From an uncultured Syntrophaceae bacterium (GTDB lineage: Bacteria > Desulfobacterota > Syntrophia > Syntrophales > PHBD01), in assembly GCA_964578535.1 (NCBI GenBank), contig CAZODI010000012.1, positions 20,183-84,182 of the forward strand: a DNA stretch of 64,000 nucleotides, in the 5' to 3' direction. Position numbers and translations under genes: made by a program. The notes under the pieces are model-generated. The model saw only the letters and a program-made list of their open reading frames with translations, ran no database searches and was not told where the DNA came from. Of the stretch, positions 34,074 through 42,500 are shown piece after piece. Position 1 is the first letter of the stretch. Every line of letters begins with the position of its first letter.

Positions 34074-35273
34074 TCAGACCTTGAAGACTCCTCCGTCGTA
34101 GACAACGACGTTCTTCCCTGTTTTCAGCCTGGCCGTCACGGTCTTGTTCTCCGTGTTCACGAGATCCCAGTGGAGGGCCGAATCGTTGAAGCCCAGGGCC
34201 TTCTTCTTTTCCCTTGTCAGTTCCGCCGGGTTTCCCGAGTAGGTGTCCGAATAGGACGACCCGACGGCCACGTGGCAGTTCCCGAAGGCCCCTCCGTGGT
34301 TCTCGTCGAAGAGCGTGTCCGCCATGAAGCGGCCGATCCGGGAGAACCGGCGGTCCGTCAGGGAGAACTCCCCTACCCGGCTCGCCCCCCGGTCCATGGC
34401 GAGCTGCTTCCGGACGAACTCCGCCCCCGTGGCGGCCTGGATGCCGACGGCCACGCCTTTCCGGAAGGTCAGCCGGACCCCATCCACGTAGTTGCCGCTC
34501 CGGTAGGAAGGAAGGTTCGCGTAATACGTCCCCTCGGTTCCACGCCAGTCCGGAGACAGGAAGACTTCGTAGCTCGGGATGTTGTGCCCCGAAACGCCGG
34601 CCCATTTCCTCTGCTCCCCCGGTACGACCGTCAGATCCATGTTCGCCGACTCGACGCGGAAGGACTTCACGGGCAGGCTGCCCAGCCACGTCTTGATGCG
34701 GCCGATTTCCCGGTGGATCCAGGACCACTTCCGGACGGGATCCTCCTCGTCGAGCCAGCAGGCCCGGACGATCTCGTTCTCGTAGGTCTTCGGGGTCGTC
34801 TTCGCCTGGAGGGCCAGCTCCTTCGTCGGATACGTGCAGAGGGTCCAGCCGTAGTGCCCCTCCTCTTCCCGGCGATCCAGGATGTCCTTCAGGGACTTGC
34901 GGGCCACCAGGACCTTCCCGATCCGGAGGGGATCGATCTCCTTCAGGTGCGTCAGCGACTCCGGCGCCCGCAGGAAAATCCGTCCATTGACCCGCTCCAG
35001 AAGCTCCCTTTCCCCCGGGGCGATGAAGGTCAGCTGGCGTCCCGATGATTTCTCGAAAAACATCCTCTCCATGCGAAACGTCAGCCCCATCCTCTGGACC
35101 GGGGACATCCCGCGATCCAGGACGCGGGCATACAGAAGCTCGGCCAGAGGCAGTGCCGGCGGGTCATACTGGATCAGGACAAGATCCCCTTTCCGGAATT
35201 TCCCTTTCCGGGCGGTTTCCAATCCCCACAGAAGAACATCCGCATAGCGCTCCAACCGGGTATCCGTCAGCAT
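34074..35273 (-). CDS. M29-family (AmpS/PepS-like) aminopeptidase
   Basis: 399 aa from ATG 35273, inside an 887-aa ORF. C-terminal FDENHGGAFGNCHVAVGSSY and NDSALHWDLV are typical of thermophilic metalloprotease M29. Confidence 0.85.
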   Translation of the reverse strand: MLTDTRLERYADVLLWGLETARKGKFRKGDLVLIQYDPPALPLAELLYARVLDRGMSPVQRMGLTFRMERMFFEKSSGRQLTFIAPGERELLERVNGRIFLRAPESLTHLKEIDPLRIGKVLVARKSLKDILDRREEEGHYGWTLCTYPTKELALQAKTTPKTYENEIVRACWLDEEDPVRKWSWIHREIGRIKTWLGSLPVKSFRVESANMDLTVVPGEQRKWAGVSGHNIPSYEVFLSPDWRGTEGTYYANLPSYRSGNYVDGVRLTFRKGVAVGIQAATGAEFVRKQLAMDRGASRVGEFSLTDRRFSRIGRFMADTLFDENHGGAFGNCHVAVGSSYSDTYSGNPAELTREKKKALGFNDSALHWDLVNTENKTVTARLKTGKNVVVYDGGVFKV

Positions 35274-35424
35274 GTCCTCTTCCCTCCCTCGAAAAGTAGG
35301 GGAAAGGTAGCAGAAAAAGCGGGATTTGGCAAAGAGGACGGGGGGCGGGCAGGCCTTCCCCCGGGGTCGCCAGCGCCAGTGGAGAGAGGCGCGGCGGGAC
35401 CCGCCGAAAAGGGCCAATTTTGTG

Positions 35425-35454
35425 TTGACAAGATTGTCCCTTTCCGTGTAGTTG
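35425..35454 (+). promoter_or_regulatory. weak sigma-70-like promoter with overlapping palindrome upstream of nrpR
   Basis: TTGACA (35425-35430), with only a poor -10 (TAGTTG) 18 nt downstream. The palindrome GACAA-GA-TTGTC (35427-35438) overlaps the -35. Confidence 0.25.
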
Positions 35455-35480
35455 CGTCGGCAAAGGATGGCCGATTGCCG

Positions 35481-37953
<2,473 letters not shown>

Positions 37954-37981: not shown

Positions 37982-38017
37982 GGACGGCCGCGGAATTCCC
38001 GCGGCCGTCCCTGTTTT
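37982..38017 (+). terminator. rho-independent terminator of gdhA
   Basis: Perfect 12-bp stem GGACGGCCGCGG-AATTC-CCGCGGCCGTCC followed by CTGTTTT. Confidence 0.7.
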
Positions 38018-38094: not shown

Positions 38095-40686
38095 TCATTC
38101 CCGGGCGTATACGATCAGCTTCTGCGTCACGACGTTCGACATGAGCCGGAGGTTCCGCTCCCGCACGTCGTAGACGCGCACCACTTCCCCGTAGGCGCCG
38201 TCCCTGGGGGACAGTTCCGAGAGGCGGTTGGGAAAGGCCGAGAGCCACGCCGGATTGAAGTAGACGTTCTCCTTTTCGGGATAGATGGCCATATAGAAGA
38301 TCTCCATCTCCACAAGGTCCTGGAAGAAATGGGTCCCGAAGGAGAGATCGGGGATCAGGCTTCCGTCCCGGTAGGCGATCTCGGCAATGGCGGTGATGTT
38401 GTTGATCTCCGAGAAGGTCACGGGGACCCCCATGGCCGGCGTCGTCGTTCCCCATCGACCCGGTCCCAGGAGTGCCGTGGGCCTTTCCTCCCGGTTCTCC
38501 ACGAGCTTGTTGAGCCGGCCGATGATGCGGGCCACATCGTATTTTTCCGAGAGGGACAATTTTGTATAGCCCTGGGGATCGATGTAGATCACGTGGGAAA
38601 TGGGCTGCGAGACGCTTCCGCCCATGAAGTTTCCCTCCTGCCGGATGAGCACCCGCTCCTTCCGGACCCTGGCCGGGATCTCCACCTGGGCCGTCTGCCC
38701 CCGCGTCTGGAACGGCCGGCATTGCAGCAGGTTGACCTGCAGGTTCCCCTGGGCGTTGAAGTTGGCCGTAAACTCAATGTCAACCGGATATTCGTAAACC
38801 CTTTCGAGCGTCTTGAGCATCCGGGACATGGTATCGGGAAAATCCGTCGTCGAGAGGAGCTCGTCGAAGGTCAGGATCCAGATGTCCGTTTCGGGCCTGC
38901 CCAGGGCCCGCAGGCGGTCCGCAGACTCCATGTCACGGGTGCCCACCAGGTCCAGCCTCGCGTCCAGGCCCTCCTGGACCACCTGCACCAGCGGCAGAGA
39001 CTGGAAGCGGTTTTCCTCCAGGTTGAGCACGTCCACATCGTGCTGGGAGAACCGCCGGGCGTCGTCAAGCCCCGAATGGGCCTTCAGAAGGGGATCGTCG
39101 AGAGCCACGATCCGCGGATAATCGTTTTCCACCCGGTTGACCGCCCGGGTTCCCAGCCCCAGGACCAGACGGAGCATTCCGGCCTTGGGATCGAGGCCCT
39201 GTTTCCAGACGAAGGTGTTGTGGGAAAGACCGACCCCTGCCAGCTCCGGGAAGAAATAATGCTTCCGGTAGGATCCGGACACCCGCTGGACGAGGAGGGC
39301 CATCTGCTCGTCCTGCTGGTCCAGGCCCCGCTGAAGCCGGTAGGTCAGGGCATCGACATTCATGGTGCTGGCGAAGATGCGCCGCACCGCCTCCTCGAAA
39401 AGCTCGTAGCGCTGCTCCGGCGTGCCCTGGTTGGCGCAGAAATAGCTCTCGTACTTGCCCGCGAAGGCATTGCCGAAGGCGTCTTCCAGCAGGCTGCTGG
39501 AGCGGACGATGATGGGGGACTGGCCGAAATACTCGAGCATCAACTGGAACTGCTCCCGCACCTCCTCCGGGAAAACACCCCGGAGCATGACGTTCCGAAG
39601 CTCACCGGCGCACTCGAAATAGCCTTCCTTGGTCTTCTGCGCCATCAGGAGCTTCCACCAGCCGTTCTGAACGATGTAGGAGTAAAAGACATCGGATCCG
39701 ATATAAAAGGAATCATGCCGTTCCAGCTTGCCGTCCCAGTCGAAGGACCGGTCCTTCCGAAGGACGTTCCGGGCCAGGAGCATGCCGACGGACTTTCCGC
39801 CGATGAATCCCGTTCCGATAAGGCGTTCGTGGATCTCCAGCAGATCCTCCAGGGTGAAATAATCCCTGGCCAGGGACAGCATGCGCTTCTCCCGCCCGAT
39901 GAGGACCCGGGAGAGCTGGTCCACCATGCCGTGTTTCGCTTCCCTTGCCCCGGGGTCCTGTGCCAGTTCGCGGGCCTGCATGAAGATGCGGTCCCAGTAA
40001 TCCAGGTTCCGCTCGGCACCGACGGATCCCTTGTGGGCCAGGAAGGCGAACAGGTTGGTGGCGTCGACGCTGTTCATGATCGGCGTGAAGCGGCCGTTGG
40101 TCTGAATGTGGGGAAGGAACATGGTGGGCGAATAGCGGTGCCAGGCCTTGAGGGGGTGGACGCACATCTTTCCCTTGTAATTGTAGATGTCCAGGAGCAC
40201 CTGGGTGGTCTCCCGGATGCGGGCGACCGTCTTGAAGGAGTGCCGGCTCCGGAGAATGGCGAAATAGGCGACGGTGTTCAACTCGAAGAGGTACGGGCAG
40301 GTGATGACGAAGAAATTGCCGATCATCAGGTCCGTGGCCCAGGCGTGCAGGAGGTCCGAAAGGCAGTCGAAGACATAGAAAACATCCCGTCCCTCCTTGC
40401 GGATGATGTTGTGGACCTGCGTGGAGAAGGACTCGAACCCCATGTCGGCGTTGAGCTTGTAGATGGTCACCTGGCCCGTGGGCTCCAGGAGCGGCGCATG
40501 GCGGGCGAAGCGCATGTAGACGACCCGCTCGTTGTTCTCGAGGGCTGTCTTGACAAAGGGAAGGACGAAGGAGCGGTAGTCCTCCATGTCGTCCACCTGG
40601 AGCACCACATTGTCTCCTGTCTGGAGGTAGTTGAGGACGTTGTCGAGCCCCTCGATGCCGGTCGAGACCCGGGAAAAGGATACCAT
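38095..40686 (-). CDS. degenerate KaiC/RecA-like domain fused to PEP/pyruvate-binding (PPDK-N, ATP-grasp) domain protein
   Basis: 863 aa from ATG 40686 (the ORF runs to 40731). The N-terminus STGIEGLDNVL is KaiC/RadA-like, but no GxxGxGK[ST] P-loop follows. A central IIVRSSSLLEDAFGNAFAGKYESY matches the PPDK/PEP-synthase nucleotide-binding domain. No swivel-His or PEP-utiliser TIM domain was seen. Confidence 0.8.
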   Translation of the reverse strand: MVSFSRVSTGIEGLDNVLNYLQTGDNVVLQVDDMEDYRSFVLPFVKTALENNERVVYMRFARHAPLLEPTGQVTIYKLNADMGFESFSTQVHNIIRKEGRDVFYVFDCLSDLLHAWATDLMIGNFFVITCPYLFELNTVAYFAILRSRHSFKTVARIRETTQVLLDIYNYKGKMCVHPLKAWHRYSPTMFLPHIQTNGRFTPIMNSVDATNLFAFLAHKGSVGAERNLDYWDRIFMQARELAQDPGAREAKHGMVDQLSRVLIGREKRMLSLARDYFTLEDLLEIHERLIGTGFIGGKSVGMLLARNVLRKDRSFDWDGKLERHDSFYIGSDVFYSYIVQNGWWKLLMAQKTKEGYFECAGELRNVMLRGVFPEEVREQFQLMLEYFGQSPIIVRSSSLLEDAFGNAFAGKYESYFCANQGTPEQRYELFEEAVRRIFASTMNVDALTYRLQRGLDQQDEQMALLVQRVSGSYRKHYFFPELAGVGLSHNTFVWKQGLDPKAGMLRLVLGLGTRAVNRVENDYPRIVALDDPLLKAHSGLDDARRFSQHDVDVLNLEENRFQSLPLVQVVQEGLDARLDLVGTRDMESADRLRALGRPETDIWILTFDELLSTTDFPDTMSRMLKTLERVYEYPVDIEFTANFNAQGNLQVNLLQCRPFQTRGQTAQVEIPARVRKERVLIRQEGNFMGGSVSQPISHVIYIDPQGYTKLSLSEKYDVARIIGRLNKLVENREERPTALLGPGRWGTTTPAMGVPVTFSEINNITAIAEIAYRDGSLIPDLSFGTHFFQDLVEMEIFYMAIYPEKENVYFNPAWLSAFPNRLSELSPRDGAYGEVVRVYDVRERNLRLMSNVVTQKLIVYARE

Positions 40687-40799
40687 GGACAGAAACCCCC
40701 TTTTCGAAATTGCCGACTCATTCTTTATCAAATTTCATACCAGAAATGGTTTTCTTCTCCCATTGCCAATTTAAACGAAAATGTATAGAAGGGATTCGT

Positions 40800-40827
40800 T
40801 GGCACACTTTTTGTTCATTTTTGTCCA
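40800..40827 (+). promoter_or_regulatory. sigma-54-like -24/-12 element or EBP half-sites upstream of the activator gene (ambiguous)
   Basis: TGGCAC-ACTTT-TTGT (GG-N10-GT, so the -12 is off consensus) at 40800-40814. It overlaps the tandem 10-mers TTTTTGTTCA and TTTTTGTCCA (40808-40827), which resemble the TTTTTGTGCC half-site of the glt UAS. Confidence 0.3.
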
Positions 40828-40871: not shown

Positions 40872-42431
40872 GTGAGCACCCATAGTTTCGAAGAACTGGC
40901 GGCCCTCCATGCCATCGCCAAGATCCTGGCCCAGCCCTGGGAGTTGCGGGACCAGCTCGAGCGCGTCCTCAACGAAATGCATGTCCGGCTGGGGATGGAG
41001 CGCGGCATGATCTCGCTCCTCGATCGGGATACCGGCGAGGCGTGGCTGGATGTCGCCCATGGCGTCAATCTCGACGGCCTGGAGATCACCTACCGGATGG
41101 GGGAGGGGATCACCGGCAAGGTGGCCCAGACGGGCCGTCCCATGGCAATCCCCAACCTGGGCAAGGAGGCCCTGTTCCTGGACCGGACGGGAGCCCGGCG
41201 ATACCTGAACCGGGAAGAACTGGCGTTTCTGTGCGTCCCGATCATGTACGACAACCGGGTCGTAGGCATCCTGTCGGCCGACAAGGGCGCCGGCTCCGTG
41301 ATCGACCTCGATCTCGAGCTTACCATGCTCACCGCCGTCGCGGAACTGATCGCCAAGGCGGTGCACATCCTGGCGCTGGAAGAGGAGAACCGGCGGCTCC
41401 GCCGGATCATCAATCAGGGACGGTCGCCGTCCGTCGATTTTATAGGACATTCCAAGGGGATGCAGGAAGTCTTCGGGCTCGTCAGCCATGTGGCCGACTC
41501 GGGCACAACGGTCCTGATCCTGGGGGAGACGGGAACCGGGAAGGAGCTGGTGGCCCGGGCGATCCACATGAACAGTCCCCACGGCAAGGGCCCCCTGGTC
41601 CAGGTGAACTGCGCCGCGATTCCCGACACCCTCATGGAAAGCGAGCTGTTCGGTCATGAAAAGGGTGCCTTCACGGGGGCGCTTCGCCAGCGTCGGGGCC
41701 GCTTCGAGGAGGCCAACAACGGCACGATTTTCCTGGACGAGGTATCGGAGCTGTCCGCCGCCGCCCAGGCCAAGCTGCTCCGCGTTCTCCAGGAAAAGCA
41801 GTTCCAGCCGCTGGGCTCGTCCCGGCTGGTTCACACGAACGCCAGGGTTGTCGCGGCCACGAACCGCCGCCTGGAGGAATGCATCGCCACCGGCCAGTTC
41901 CGGTCCGACCTGTATTATCGCCTGAGCGTCTTCCCCATCCATCTGCCACCGCTTCGCGAGCGGGGCAACGACATCATTCTCCTGGCCGACCATTTCGTAC
42001 TCAAGTATTCGCACGAACTGGGAAAACCGGTCAAACGGATCTCCACGGCCGTGGTCGAGGCCTTCCTGAGCCACACCTGGCCGGGCAATGTCCGCGAACT
42101 GGAAAACTGCATCGAGCGGGCCGTCCTGCTCGCGGAGGGGGATTCCATTGAAATCGTGCATCTTCCCCCTTCCCTGCAGATCAAGACCCGGACCTGTGAA
42201 AAGAAGGACTCGGGACGGCTCAGCTCCGTCGTCGAGGCCCAGGAACGGACGCTGATCATCGACGCCCTGAAGGAGACCCGGGGCAACCAGAGCCAGGCAG
42301 CGCGGCTCCTGGGAACGACGAAGCGGATCATCCAGTACAAGATCCAGAAGCTGGGCATCGACCCCCGGAAATACCGGCAGAAGGGGCGCGGACCGGACCG
42401 CCCGGGTCAGGACGTCCAGGAGGTGGCGTGA
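40872..42431 (+). CDS. GAF-domain sigma-54-dependent transcriptional activator (NifA-like architecture)
   Basis: 519 aa from GTG 40872 (RBS GGAGGA). N-terminal GAF-like domain, AAA+ core with Walker A GETGTGKE and ESELFGHEKGAFTGA, and a C-terminal Fis-type HTH QSQAARLLGTTKRIIQYKIQKLGI. There is no receiver domain. Confidence 0.9.
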   Translation: MSTHSFEELAALHAIAKILAQPWELRDQLERVLNEMHVRLGMERGMISLLDRDTGEAWLDVAHGVNLDGLEITYRMGEGITGKVAQTGRPMAIPNLGKEALFLDRTGARRYLNREELAFLCVPIMYDNRVVGILSADKGAGSVIDLDLELTMLTAVAELIAKAVHILALEEENRRLRRIINQGRSPSVDFIGHSKGMQEVFGLVSHVADSGTTVLILGETGTGKELVARAIHMNSPHGKGPLVQVNCAAIPDTLMESELFGHEKGAFTGALRQRRGRFEEANNGTIFLDEVSELSAAAQAKLLRVLQEKQFQPLGSSRLVHTNARVVAATNRRLEECIATGQFRSDLYYRLSVFPIHLPPLRERGNDIILLADHFVLKYSHELGKPVKRISTAVVEAFLSHTWPGNVRELENCIERAVLLAEGDSIEIVHLPPSLQIKTRTCEKKDSGRLSSVVEAQERTLIIDALKETRGNQSQAARLLGTTKRIIQYKIQKLGIDPRKYRQKGRGPDRPGQDVQEVA

Positions 42432-42456: not shown

Positions 42457-42500
42457 ACAATTTTGTATTTTCAGGCACACAGAAAAGACATTTTTGTGCC
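42457..42500 (+). promoter_or_regulatory. candidate upstream activator sequence for the glt-glnN operon
   Basis: ACAA-TT-TTGT (42457-42466), TGT-N10-ACA (42464-42479, NifA-UAS-like), and the inverted repeat GGCACA-N15-TGTGCC (42474-42500). It is centred about 90-110 nt upstream of the sigma-54 promoter. Confidence 0.4.

What the first reader, a model, noticed from the sequence alone, without database searches (positions are those of the whole stretch)
38095..40686. 863-aa fusion of a P-loop-less KaiC/RecA-like domain with a PEP/pyruvate-binding ATP-grasp domain, wedged between gdhA and the nitrogen sigma-54 activator
The N-terminus starts like KaiC/RadA (VSTGIEGLDNVL). The position where GxxGxGK[ST] should follow reads NYLQTGDNVVLQVDDMEDY, so the domain is probably a non-hydrolysing scaffold.

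The C-terminal half has the PPDK/PEP-synthase nucleotide-binding signature (IIVRSSSLLEDAFGNAFAGKYESY). I see no phospho-His swivel domain or PEP-utiliser barrel, so it cannot be a normal dikinase.

It is transcribed divergently from the EBP across a 185-bp gap and convergently with gdhA. A stand-alone ATP-grasp phosphotransfer module on a pseudo-KaiC platform at the carbon/nitrogen junction (PEP/pyruvate next to 2-OG/glutamate) is a plausible uncharacterised signalling or small-molecule-modifying enzyme.
Basis: partly seen in the sequence, partly recalled or inferred. Interest (0 to 1): 0.6.

Follow-up and report, generated by a model that had tools for sequence, protein, structure and literature searches.

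The report
Nitrogen-linked ATP-grasp enzyme, unknown function
This gene encodes a member of a large, unstudied bacterial protein family (a dead KaiC-like domain, a working-looking PEP-synthase-type ATP-binding domain and a new histidine-bearing tail) that sits beside glutamate dehydrogenase, glutamate synthase and ammonium-sensing genes in many phyla, so it is probably an overlooked ATP-driven player in nitrogen assimilation.

Summary
Window 38095-40686 (-) encodes an 863-aa protein with three domains:
- A RecA/KaiC-fold N-domain with no Walker A. GDNVV...DDMEDY stands in its place.
- A PPDK_N ATP-grasp domain (residues 295-676, E 1.4e-51). All nucleotide- and Mg-binding residues are invariant.
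It folds confidently (pLDDT 92) but matches no Pfam family and no PDB fold.

There is no swivel phospho-His domain and no PEP/pyruvate barrel, so it is not PEP synthase or PPDK despite its database names.

ATP-grasp plus C-domain is the conserved catalytic core. Across 91 diverse relatives, half of them lacking the KaiC-like domain, R744, E769, S782 and H786 are 100% conserved. That equals the conservation of the ATP-grasp catalytic residues.

Linkage to nitrogen genes is strong. Of 70 loci from several phyla, 64% have GDH, GOGAT, AmtB/PII, NrpR, a GAF-sigma54 activator, CarAB or GS within 6 kb. Presence tracks GDH in related genomes (26/27 versus 7/14). A conserved sigma54-like promoter precedes the gene.

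My best reading is an ATP-dependent, His786-mediated phosphotransferase that regulates or services the glutamate-forming node. The substrate is unknown. I found no paper on the family.

The parts
38095..40686 (-). Whole coding sequence, 863 aa plus stop codon
   Evidence: ORF list and translation. Orthologues align from this ATG. RBS GGGGG lies upstream.
39952..40686 (-). N-domain (residues 1-245): RecA/KaiC fold without Walker A or catalytic Glu. The Walker-B-like D107 is kept. Invariant polar residues include D25, N26, R59, H63, R146, H149, R158, K180 and R184.
   Evidence: Foldseek matches KaiC-CI, FlaH and RecA. Faint Pfam hits to MEDS and PAXNEB (Elp4) only. Weak KaiC profile alignment. 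Invariant columns.
38659..39804 (-). PPDK_N-type ATP-grasp nucleotide-binding domain (residues 295-676), preceded by a helical lead-in from about residue 248. Motifs: GIGGK298, R395-SSSLLED402, E638, Q655, R657.
   Evidence: Pfam E 1.4e-51. Foldseek matches rifampin phosphotransferase 5hv3 at E 9e-12 and HpeI 9goj. Alignment to PEP synthase chains. Motifs conserved 97-100% in 91 relatives.
38098..38658 (-). New C-terminal domain (residues 677-863). Motifs: GPGR744WG and S782-x-G-T-H786-FF-x-D-x-x-E793.
   Evidence: No Pfam hit in any of 24 members. No PDB sequence hit. AF2 model of the domain alone has pLDDT 91.7 and pTM 0.90. Best Foldseek PDB hit is E 0.04 with TM below 0.3, and the viral library gives nothing.
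38329..38331 (-). Codon of invariant His786. It sits at the N-terminus of helix 785-793, after the low-confidence loop 773-786.
   Evidence: Translation check. 100% conserved in 91 relatives, with and without the N-domain. Model confidence and secondary structure.
40728..40742 (-). Sigma54-like -24/-12 element TGGTATGAAATTTGA, starting 56 nt upstream of the start codon
   Evidence: Retained in orthologue loci L026-L030 and L042 while the flanking intergenic sequence diverges. L044 has a perfect TGGCAC-N5-TTGC. 13 hits in 97 upstream regions against 0.58 expected.
40801..40827 (.). 27-bp element GGCACACTTTTTGTTCATTTTTGTCCA, a possible activator binding site. It overlaps a sigma54-like TGGCACACTTTTTGT on the + strand that faces the activator gene.
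   Evidence: Matches the perfect inverted repeat upstream of the glt operon (42474-42500) at 10 of its 12 specified positions. It lies about 80 nt upstream of the target's -24 element, the same geometry as at glt. This is an inference and is not statistically secure.
40872..42431 (+). Divergent GAF / sigma54-AAA+ / HTH_8 enhancer-binding protein
   Evidence: Pfam. Start codon check. The same divergent or upstream partner appears in many orthologue loci.
36598..37953 (+). Convergent gdhA (glutamate dehydrogenase), downstream of nrpR (35379-36566)
   Evidence: Pfam. GdhA is the most frequent neighbour of the family, in 25 of 80 loci.
37982..38010 (.). GC-rich hairpin between the convergent gdhA and target genes, probably a terminator
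   Evidence: Terminator scan: 12-bp stem, 11 GC pairs, T-run on the + strand.

Best explanation
The gene encodes a three-domain, ATP-dependent phosphotransferase of an uncharacterised and widespread family. The family belongs to the nitrogen-assimilation gene set.

Shown:
- The PPDK-type ATP-grasp domain keeps every residue needed to bind Mg-ATP.
- It is always joined to a new C-terminal domain whose R744, E769, S782 and H786 are as invariant as the ATP-grasp catalytic residues.
- The canonical swivel-His and PEP/pyruvate domains are absent.
- The KaiC-like N-domain has lost its P-loop and is an optional accessory module.
- Across phyla the gene sits beside the genes for GDH, GOGAT, AmtB-GlnK, NrpR, a NifA-like activator, CarAB and GS.

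Inferred mechanism: the ATP-grasp domain phosphorylates His786. This residue sits at a helix N-terminus on a mobile loop, the same local setting as the phospho-His of dikinases. The new domain thereby replaces the swivel domain as phosphoryl carrier. The phosphoryl group then goes to an unknown acceptor. I think the most likely role is regulatory. In that reading a phospho-His autokinase, like the PPDK-derived VadK, binds and tunes a glutamate-forming enzyme (GDH first, GOGAT second) or a PII-type signal protein. The P-loop-less KaiC-fold domain would act as a sensor or docking module for a nitrogen or carbon signal.

In this organism the gene is probably transcribed from a sigma54-type promoter under the divergently encoded GAF activator.
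For: Architecture and fold.

Catalytic-grade conservation: in 91 relatives (43 with the N-domain, 47 without), K298, R395, E401, D402, E638, Q655 and R657 of the ATP-grasp and R744, G753, E769, S782, G784 and H786 of the C-domain are 99-100% conserved. His786 lies at the start of helix 785-793 after a low-confidence loop.

Unbiased neighbour clustering of 80 loci: the top families are GdhA 25, AmtB 11, GltD 11, GAF-EBP 9, PII 8, GltB 8, NrpR 7, CarA 6 and CarB 5, plus PyrG, split GltB-FMN and GlnA. Of 70 loci with enough flank, 45 have such a gene within 6 kb and 38 have one as an immediate neighbour.

Independent arrangements:
- gltB-gltD-target on one strand
- gdhA>target> on one strand
- EBP>target> on one strand
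- amtB-glnK beside the gene
- Conserved synteny in the order down to 43% identity
- A genome with two copies, one keeping gdhA-nrpR and the other the activator

The N-domain-less subfamily also follows a gdh gene or glnE.

Co-occurrence with GDH in 41 related genomes is 26/27 against 7/14, Fisher p = 0.001.

The sigma54-like promoter is conserved and enriched.

Precedents for PPDK-derived non-dikinase kinases: VadK autophosphorylates on His and binds metabolic enzymes (bioRxiv 10.1101/2025.10.30.685616). Rifampin phosphotransferase and HpeHI are further examples (PMC4844700; PMC12167813).
Against: - No biochemical datum exists for any member. I found no paper on the family.
- Phosphorylation of His786 is inferred only from conservation and local structure.
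- The acceptor is unknown, and gene context cannot tell a regulator from a metabolic enzyme.
- Linkage is weak in Bacillota (5 of 18 loci) and absent at some loci.
- A double-length relative in Geobacter sp. OR-1 sits among carbohydrate genes.
- The -12 element reads TTGA rather than TTGC.
Confidence: 0.45

Rival explanations
1. It is a small-molecule dikinase or kinase of central nitrogen metabolism. The enzyme would use ATP, via His786 or directly, to phosphorylate a metabolite at the 2-oxoglutarate / glutamate / glutamine / ammonium node. The P-loop-less KaiC-fold pocket, or the C-domain, would be the substrate site. This makes it a missing metabolic step and not a regulator.
For: - Its closest structural relatives among solved proteins are small-molecule dikinases: rifampin phosphotransferase and HpeI (PMC12167813).
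- It has operon-like placement directly behind the enzyme genes gltBD, gdhA and carB.
- Its presence depends on GDH.
- The former nucleotide pocket of the N-domain is lined with invariant basic residues.
Against: - The N-domain is missing in about half of the family, while the GDH and GlnE linkage persists. It therefore cannot be the universal substrate site.
- The partners are diverse and include regulators and a transporter-sensor pair (EBP, NrpR, AmtB-GlnK, GlnE). That fits a regulon member or regulator better than one pathway step.
- No known pathway at this node lacks such a step.
Confidence: 0.27
2. It is the ATP-binding subunit of a two-component dikinase, like HpeI/HpeH or phenylphosphate synthase. 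A separately encoded swivel-His protein would then carry the phosphate.
For: Stand-alone PPDK_N subunits that work with a separate His-swivel subunit do exist (PMC12167813). HpeI is among the best fold matches.
Against: - No PEP-utilizers-domain gene recurs next to the family in 80 loci.
- The only PF00391 proteins in this 98%-complete genome are the canonical PPDK/PPS, PtsI and GAF-PtsP.
- The protein has its own invariant His-bearing domain.
Confidence: 0.05
3. It is a non-catalytic pseudoenzyme or scaffold. In that case both nucleotide domains would be degenerate and the protein would only organise nitrogen-assimilation enzymes.
For: The KaiC-like domain has clearly lost its P-loop. The swivel domain is absent.
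Against: Every ATP- and Mg-binding residue of the ATP-grasp is conserved 99-100% across relatives down to about 30% identity. Pseudoenzymes do not show that pattern.
Confidence: 0.05
4. It is an ordinary PEP synthase or pyruvate-phosphate dikinase, as many database records name it.
For: Sources name it 'phosphoenolpyruvate synthase' or 'pyruvate, water dikinase'.
Against: - All NCBIfam PEP-synthase and PPDK models score 12-59 bits against cut-offs of 456-1063 bits, and they match only part of the ATP-grasp.
- There is no PF00391 or PF02896 domain.
- The genome has a separate canonical enzyme on contig C4.
Confidence: 0.01

Closest known systems
PEP synthase (PpsA) / pyruvate-phosphate dikinase (PPDK)
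   Same: Homologous N-terminal ATP-grasp nucleotide-binding domain (PF01326) with the same Lys/Arg/Glu/Gln/Arg catalytic set.
   Different: It lacks the swivel phospho-His domain (PF00391) and the PEP/pyruvate TIM-barrel (PF02896). It has a P-loop-less KaiC-fold domain in front and a new domain behind.
Rifampin phosphotransferase (RPH, PDB 5hv1-5hv3) and related small-molecule dikinases (HpeHI, PigC/RedH)
   Same: RPH is the best structural match for the ATP-grasp part (Foldseek E 9e-12). These are PPDK_N enzymes that phosphorylate something other than pyruvate (PMC4844700; PMC12167813).
   Different: RPH and HpeH relay the phosphate through a canonical swivel His domain and have a rifampin-type substrate domain. 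Neither domain is present here or encoded nearby.
VadK (Rv1127c) of Mycobacterium tuberculosis, a PPDK-derived regulatory autokinase
   Same: It descends from PPDK, has lost the PEP/pyruvate domain, autophosphorylates on His, and binds metabolic enzymes to tune flux (bioRxiv 10.1101/2025.10.30.685616). This is the functional model I favour.
   Different: I expect VadK to keep the canonical swivel His domain, since it derives from PPDK, but I did not check this in the paper. It has no KaiC-like domain and acts on the methylcitrate cycle, not on nitrogen assimilation. I did not test homology beyond the ATP-grasp.
KaiC / FlaH (ArlH) / RecA-family ATPases and their P-loop-less derivatives (MEDS domain, Elp4/PAXNEB)
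   Same: The N-domain has the same fold (TM 0.70 to KaiC-CI and FlaH). The N-terminal STG..LD motif and a Walker-B-like Asp are kept.
   Different: There is no Walker A and no catalytic Glu pair. Hits to MEDS and PAXNEB are below threshold (16-18 bits against 29.8), so it is not a demonstrable member of those families.

Membership tests
PEP synthase / PPDK (PEP-utilising dikinases) | PPDK_N ATP-grasp nucleotide-binding domain | tested here: met
   PF01326 matches at E 1.4e-51 over residues 295-676.
PEP synthase / PPDK (PEP-utilising dikinases) | Swivel phospho-His domain (PF00391, GGxTSHAAI motif) | tested here: not met
   There is no Pfam hit in the full protein or in 24 C-domain sequences at E <= 1. 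The C-domain model has no PDB fold match.
PEP synthase / PPDK (PEP-utilising dikinases) | PEP/pyruvate-binding TIM-barrel (PF02896), and full-length match to the equivalog models | tested here: not met
   PF02896 is absent. NCBIfam PEP-synthase and PPDK models score 12-59 bits against cut-offs of 456-1063 bits.
Rifampin-phosphotransferase-type small-molecule dikinases | ATP-grasp plus swivel His domain plus rifampin-type substrate-binding domain | tested here: not met
   Only the ATP-grasp part matches: NF041857 scores 34.9 bits against a cut-off of 999, and Foldseek aligns 403 of 846 residues of 5hv3.
Two-component dikinases (HpeHI, phenylphosphate synthase) | A partner subunit with a swivel His domain, encoded nearby or as an orphan in the genome | tested here: not met
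   No such neighbour appears in 80 loci. The genome's PF00391 proteins are PPDK/PPS, PtsI and PtsP.
KaiC/RecA-family ATPases | RecA-like alpha/beta fold | tested here: met
   Foldseek matches KaiC-CI 4tl7 and FlaH 4yds at TM 0.70 normalised to target, and RecA 1xp8.
KaiC/RecA-family ATPases | Walker A GxxxxGK[ST] and a catalytic Glu after strand 2 | tested here: not met
   After strand 1 the sequence reads QVDDMEDY. The block is GDNVV...D.[LIM][ED][DE]Y in 45 orthologues. In a weak alignment, KaiC GATGTGKT and FAYEES align to DELEDY and RFAxH.
MEDS domain (PF14417) | Score above the Pfam gathering threshold | tested here: not met
   The score is 16.4-18.3 bits against a cut-off of 29.8, over 35 residues only, in 5 of 23 orthologues.
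PPDK-derived regulatory His autokinase (VadK-like) | ATP-dependent autophosphorylation on a conserved His, and binding of metabolic enzymes | not testable with these tools
   The only support is an intact ATP-grasp and the invariant His786. Biochemistry is needed.
Sigma54 / NifA-like-activator nitrogen regulon of this organism | A -24/-12 promoter and an activator site upstream | tested here: inconclusive
   TGGTAT-N5-TTGA is conserved among orthologues and enriched, with 13 hits against 0.58 expected. The -12 element is not GC. The 27-bp glt-like element has 2 mismatches. No RNA data were available.

The most novel reading that the evidence does not exclude
The family would be a new kind of nitrogen-status phosphotransfer device used by bacteria that mostly lack GlnD and GlnE. 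A PPDK-type ATP-grasp would load a previously unknown, non-swivel phospho-histidine domain (His786). That domain would then covalently or allosterically control the glutamate-forming enzymes (GDH, GOGAT) or a PII protein. The P-loop-less KaiC-fold domain would read 2-oxoglutarate, glutamine or a partner protein.
Probability: 0.3. Interest if true: 0.85.

Novelty: new variant of a known kind. Interest (0 to 1): 0.7.

Why it matters
Control of ammonium assimilation is textbook knowledge for enterobacteria (GlnD, GlnE, PII, NtrBC). It is poorly understood in the anaerobic lineages that dominate sediments, digesters and subsurface habitats: Syntrophales, Planctomycetota, Omnitrophota and Spirochaetota. 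GlnD/GlnE-type enzymes are absent from this genome and from 37 of its 41 relatives.

Several features together suggest an unrecognised ATP-consuming step or control point:
- The protein is highly conserved.
- It occurs in at least 596 species-level genomes.
- It has catalytic-grade conservation.
- It contains a domain of unknown fold.
- It is encoded next to the GDH, GOGAT and AmtB-GlnK genes.

If His786 carries phosphate, this would also be a new structural solution for the phospho-carrier role in the dikinase superfamily. The gene is widely mis-annotated as PEP synthase, which distorts metabolic reconstructions of these organisms.

Tried and rejected
- Canonical PEP synthase / PPDK: rejected on domain content and NCBIfam scores.
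- Anti-phage defence protein: no PADLOC hit.
- C-domain as a degenerate swivel domain, because GPGRWGTTTP loosely resembles GGxTSHAAI: rejected. The TTT is not conserved (SSN or SND in other clades), Pfam finds nothing, and Foldseek finds no swivel or other fold.
- C-domain as a Pol-beta nucleotidyltransferase: no support. Some relatives carry a separate, additional NTase domain.
- Profile searches of the N- and C-domains against PDB sequences: nothing significant.
- Anti-correlation with GlnD/GlnE: uninformative, because only 4 of 41 genomes have them.
- Co-occurrence with NrpR: weak (p = 0.06).
- NrpR-type GGAA-N6-TTCC operator upstream: an AGAA-N6-TTCT is seen in the window but is not conserved in orthologues (by eye).
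- Canonical TGGCAC-N5-TTGC promoter for the target: absent in the window. Only the variant TGGTAT-N5-TTGA is present.
- Recurrent unnamed neighbours (c13 porin-like Gcw_chp, c17, c30, CMD, LysR, NuoEF-like): no dedicated partner emerged.
Full report
**1. The observation**

The minus-strand ORF at 38095..40686 encodes 863 aa from the ATG at 40686. A GGGGG Shine-Dalgarno sequence precedes that ATG, and orthologues align from it. An in-frame upstream TTG (878 aa) is unlikely to be the start.

gdhA (36598-37953, +) is convergent. The 141-bp gap holds a strong hairpin at 37982-38010. The GAF / sigma54-AAA+ / HTH activator starts at GTG 40872, which gives the stated 185-bp divergent gap. nrpR lies upstream of gdhA, and the split GOGAT genes lie downstream of the activator.

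**2. Domain anatomy**

Pfam finds one significant domain, PPDK_N, at residues 295-676 (E 1.4e-51). There is no PEP-utilizers swivel domain (PF00391) and no PEP-utilizers_C barrel (PF02896). NCBIfam PEP-synthase, PPDK, rifampin-phosphotransferase and PigC models touch only about 110-150 residues of the ATP-grasp. Their scores are 12-59 bits against cut-offs of 456-1700 bits. The database names 'phosphoenolpyruvate synthase' and 'pyruvate, water dikinase' are therefore wrong. The genome has a separate canonical PPDK/PPS on another contig.

An AlphaFold2 model built from 45 orthologues (42-99% identity) is good, with mean pLDDT 82 and pTM 0.80. Foldseek against the PDB splits it as follows:
- The centre matches rifampin phosphotransferase (5hv3, E 9e-12) and the stand-alone ATP-grasp subunit HpeI (9goj).
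- Residues 1-245 match KaiC-CI (4tl7), the KaiC-like FlaH (4yds) and RecA (1xp8), with TM 0.70 normalised to target.

At sequence level the N-domain gives only sub-threshold hits, to MEDS and to PAXNEB/Elp4. From general knowledge, not tested here, both are RecA-fold families without a P-loop. A weak profile alignment puts KaiC's GATGTGKT opposite DELEDY, and its catalytic FAYEES opposite RFAxH. So the Walker A motif and the catalytic glutamates are gone, while a Walker-B-like Asp107 remains.

**3.

Residues 677-863 form a separate domain.
- No member of a 24-sequence alignment hits any Pfam family, even at E <= 1.
- A profile search of PDB sequences finds nothing.
- Folded alone, the domain gives a very confident model (pLDDT 91.7, pTM 0.90).
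- That model has no significant match in the PDB (best E 0.04, TM below 0.3) or among viral models.

It is therefore not a degenerate swivel domain. As far as these libraries show, it is a new fold.

Its motifs are GPGR744WG and S782-x-G-T-H786-F-F-x-D-x-x-E793. His786 opens helix 785-793, directly after a loop (773-786) that is the least confident segment of the full-length model. From general knowledge of PPDK and PEP synthase, the canonical phospho-His (GG-x-T-S-H-A-A) also sits at a helix N-terminus.

**4. What the conserved unit is**

An exhaustive search of 1.84 billion cluster representatives finds 884 clusters with E <= 1e-30.
- About half have the full architecture.
- The rest share only residues ~255-860 (ATP-grasp plus C-domain). 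They have other N-termini that match no Pfam family, or none at all.
- Some add a C-terminal Pol-beta nucleotidyltransferase domain.
- About 1,470-aa forms have the layout [ATP-grasp + C-domain] followed by [KaiC-like + ATP-grasp + C-domain].

In an alignment of 91 such representatives (43 with the N-domain, 47 without), the following are 99-100% conserved:
- ATP-grasp residues K298, R395, E401, D402, E638, Q655, R657
- C-domain residues R744, G753, E769, S782, G784, H786

From the alignments to PEP synthase and from established knowledge of PPDK, these ATP-grasp residues are the nucleotide and Mg2+ ligands. The conclusions are:
- ATP-grasp plus C-domain is one catalytic core.
- The ATP site is intact.
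- His786 is conserved to catalytic grade.
- The KaiC-like domain is an accessory module.

The accessory domain is nevertheless strongly conserved. Mean column identity is 61%, and there are many invariant polar residues (D25, N26, R59, H63, R146, H149, R158, K180, R184) around the former nucleotide pocket. That argues for a ligand- or partner-binding role and against a passive scaffold.

**5.

Within the order, 27 of 41 genomes carry the gene. I fetched +/-8 kb around 20 copies. The gene lies convergent with gdhA-nrpR, divergent from the activator-GOGAT unit, or both. This holds in at least eight GTDB families and down to 43% identity. One genome has two copies, one beside gdhA-nrpR and the other beside the activator.

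A scan of GTDB species genomes found at least 596 carriers. They span Desulfobacterota, Planctomycetota, Omnitrophota, Spirochaetota, Bacillota, Actinomycetota, Margulisiibacteriota and Elusimicrobia, with one Methanoregula MAG.

I clustered all ORFs within 6 kb of 80 of these loci without prior labels. The most frequent neighbour families are:

| Neighbour family | Loci (of 80) |
|---|---|
| GdhA | 25 |
| AmtB | 11 |
| GltD | 11 |
| GAF-sigma54 activator | 9 |
| PII | 8 |
| GltB | 8 |
| NrpR | 7 |
| LuxR-type response regulator | 7 |
| CarA | 6 |
| CarB | 5 |

CTP synthase, the split-GOGAT FMN subunit, glutamine synthetase and a class-I amidotransferase follow.

Of 70 loci with at least 3 kb of flank, 45 (64%) have such a gene within 6 kb and 38 (54%) have one as an immediate neighbour. 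By lineage the counts are Desulfobacterota 19/23, Planctomycetota 9/10, Omnitrophota 6/7 and Bacillota only 5/18. As a rough estimate of mine, a single-copy gene in a 3-Mb genome should fall in such a 15-kb window by chance about 0.5% of the time.

Operon-like forms recur on one strand: gltB-gltD-target, gdhA-target, activator-target and amtB-target. There are also target-dapF-aminotransferase arrangements with overlapping genes.

The N-domain-less ~760-aa subfamily shows the same pattern. It follows gdh directly in Desulfacinum hydrothermale and in an 8-Mb genome, and follows glnE with carAB nearby in another. The nitrogen link therefore belongs to the catalytic core.

Phyletically, 26 of 27 carriers in the order have a GDH, against 7 of 14 non-carriers. 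Fisher p is 0.001, or 0.003 after collapsing the window's genus. These genomes are related, so the p values are indicative only. The link to NrpR is weaker (p = 0.06).

Exceptions exist. A Sumerlaeia locus, some Bacillota loci, and a locus beside pyruvate kinase show no nitrogen genes. The double-length Geobacter sp. OR-1 gene lies between an alpha-amylase-family gene and pgi.

**6. Regulation in this window**

The target has no canonical TGGCAC-N5-TTGC. However, TGGTATGAAATTTGA at 40728-40742 (-), starting 56 nt upstream of the ATG, is retained in orthologue loci L026-L030 and L042. In those loci the rest of the intergenic region has diverged. A distant orthologue (L044) has a perfect TGGCACAGGTATTGC. 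The class TGG[CT]A[CT]-N5-TTG[CAT] occurs in 13 of 97 upstream regions against 0.58 expected from locus-wide density.

About 80 nt further upstream lies a 27-bp element at 40801-40827. It matches the perfect inverted repeat upstream of the glt operon (42474-42500) at 10 of the 12 specified positions and shares further bases in the spacer. The geometry parallels that of glt. The element overlaps a sigma54-like TGGCACACTTTTTGT on the + strand that faces the activator gene, so its role is ambiguous.

I infer, without proof, sigma54-dependent transcription under the neighbouring GAF activator.

**7. Mechanism**

Shown:
- An intact Mg-ATP site of the dikinase type.
- No canonical phospho-carrier or PEP/pyruvate domain.
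- An obligatory new domain with an invariant His on a mobile element.
- An optional, P-loop-less KaiC-fold module.
- Membership of the nitrogen-assimilation gene neighbourhood, with GDH as the prime associate.

Inferred: ATP-dependent phosphorylation of His786, followed by transfer to, or control of, a partner.

I favour a regulatory role (confidence 0.45 for the whole statement) for two reasons. First, the partners include regulators and sensors (activator, NrpR, AmtB-GlnK, GlnE) as well as enzymes. Second, there is a precedent: VadK, a PPDK-derived His autokinase that binds metabolic enzymes and tunes flux.

The rivals are:
- A small-molecule dikinase acting at the 2-oxoglutarate/glutamate node (0.27). 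The closest solved relatives are small-molecule dikinases (PMC4844700; PMC12167813).
- A two-component dikinase (0.05). This is disfavoured because no swivel-His partner is encoded nearby, and the genome's only other PF00391 proteins are PtsI and GAF-PtsP.
- A pseudoenzyme (0.05). This is disfavoured by the catalytic-grade conservation.
- A true PEP synthase (0.01). This is refuted.

**8. Comparison, novelty and earlier notes**

I found no paper on the family. It works like a member of the PPDK_N dikinase/kinase superfamily, but it fails the defining tests for PEP synthase/PPDK, for RPH-type enzymes and for two-component dikinases. The N-domain has the KaiC/RecA fold but fails the ATPase motifs. 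I rate it a new variant of a known kind: a known ATP-grasp chemistry combined with a new putative phospho-carrier domain and a new biological context.

Earlier notes of this scan describe the same family in other genomes and reach similar readings. I treated them as leads and re-derived the main claims here.
- The nitrogen/GDH linkage of the N-domain-less subfamily.
- The GDH co-occurrence statistic.
- The conserved sigma54-like promoter and glt-like upstream element in this window.
- The exclusion of an orphan swivel partner.

GlnD/GlnE-type enzymes are absent from this genome and from 37 of 41 relatives. That leaves room for an alternative modifier but proves nothing.

Noticed in passing
G000 contig C17 (locus L005:448-2775, -) and contig C60 (L003:430-2208, -): The genome encodes a GAF-domain enzyme I (PtsP / EI-Ntr type, 776 aa) and an ordinary PtsI (593 aa). 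A nitrogen-PTS branch may therefore coexist with NrpR, the NifA-like activator and the target.
   Followed up: partly
L031 and L032 (genome G023, contigs C18 and C9): One related genome has two full-length copies (71% and 70% identical to the query). One copy keeps the gdhA-nrpR side of the neighbourhood and the other keeps the activator side.
   Followed up: no
L047:8001-12419 (Geobacter sp. OR-1, P0006, 1472 aa): Double-length relatives have the layout [ATP-grasp + C-domain] followed by [KaiC-like + ATP-grasp + C-domain]. This one lies between a 1149-aa alpha-amylase-family gene and pgi, which is a carbohydrate context and not a nitrogen one.
   Followed up: no
Proteins P0182, P0231 and P0243: Some relatives of the ATP-grasp + C-domain core carry an extra C-terminal Pol-beta-type nucleotidyltransferase domain (PF01909 / PF18765). 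One of them also contains two ATP-grasp domains.
   Followed up: no
window 40800-40814 (+): TGGCACACTTTTTGT is a sigma54-like -24/-12 element with one mismatch. It faces the activator gene (start 40872), so the activator may itself be sigma54-dependent. The element overlaps the 27-bp glt-like repeat.
   Followed up: partly
whole genome G000 and 40 relatives: GlnD/GlnE-type domains (PF08335) are absent from this genome and from 37 of the 41 genomes of the order. NrpR is present in 31 of the 41.
   Followed up: partly
L048/L049:10644-12677 and L050:10625-12650: In one clade (about 43% identity to the query) the gene overlaps or abuts dapF and an aminotransferase gene on the same strand. In L048/L049 it is also preceded by a cNMP-binding-domain gene and a divergent amtB-glnK pair.
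   Followed up: no
window 34074-35363 (-): An M29 (thermophilic-type) aminopeptidase gene lies divergent from nrpR. The same position is conserved in same-genus relatives (L026, L027).
   Followed up: no
L060, L062, L067 (Desulfobacterales-type loci): A roughly 206-aa ORF with no Pfam match (cluster c17) recurs directly beside gdhA in gdhA-target loci. A 376-aa ORF with no Pfam match (c30) lies next to the target in L060 and L095.
   Followed up: partly
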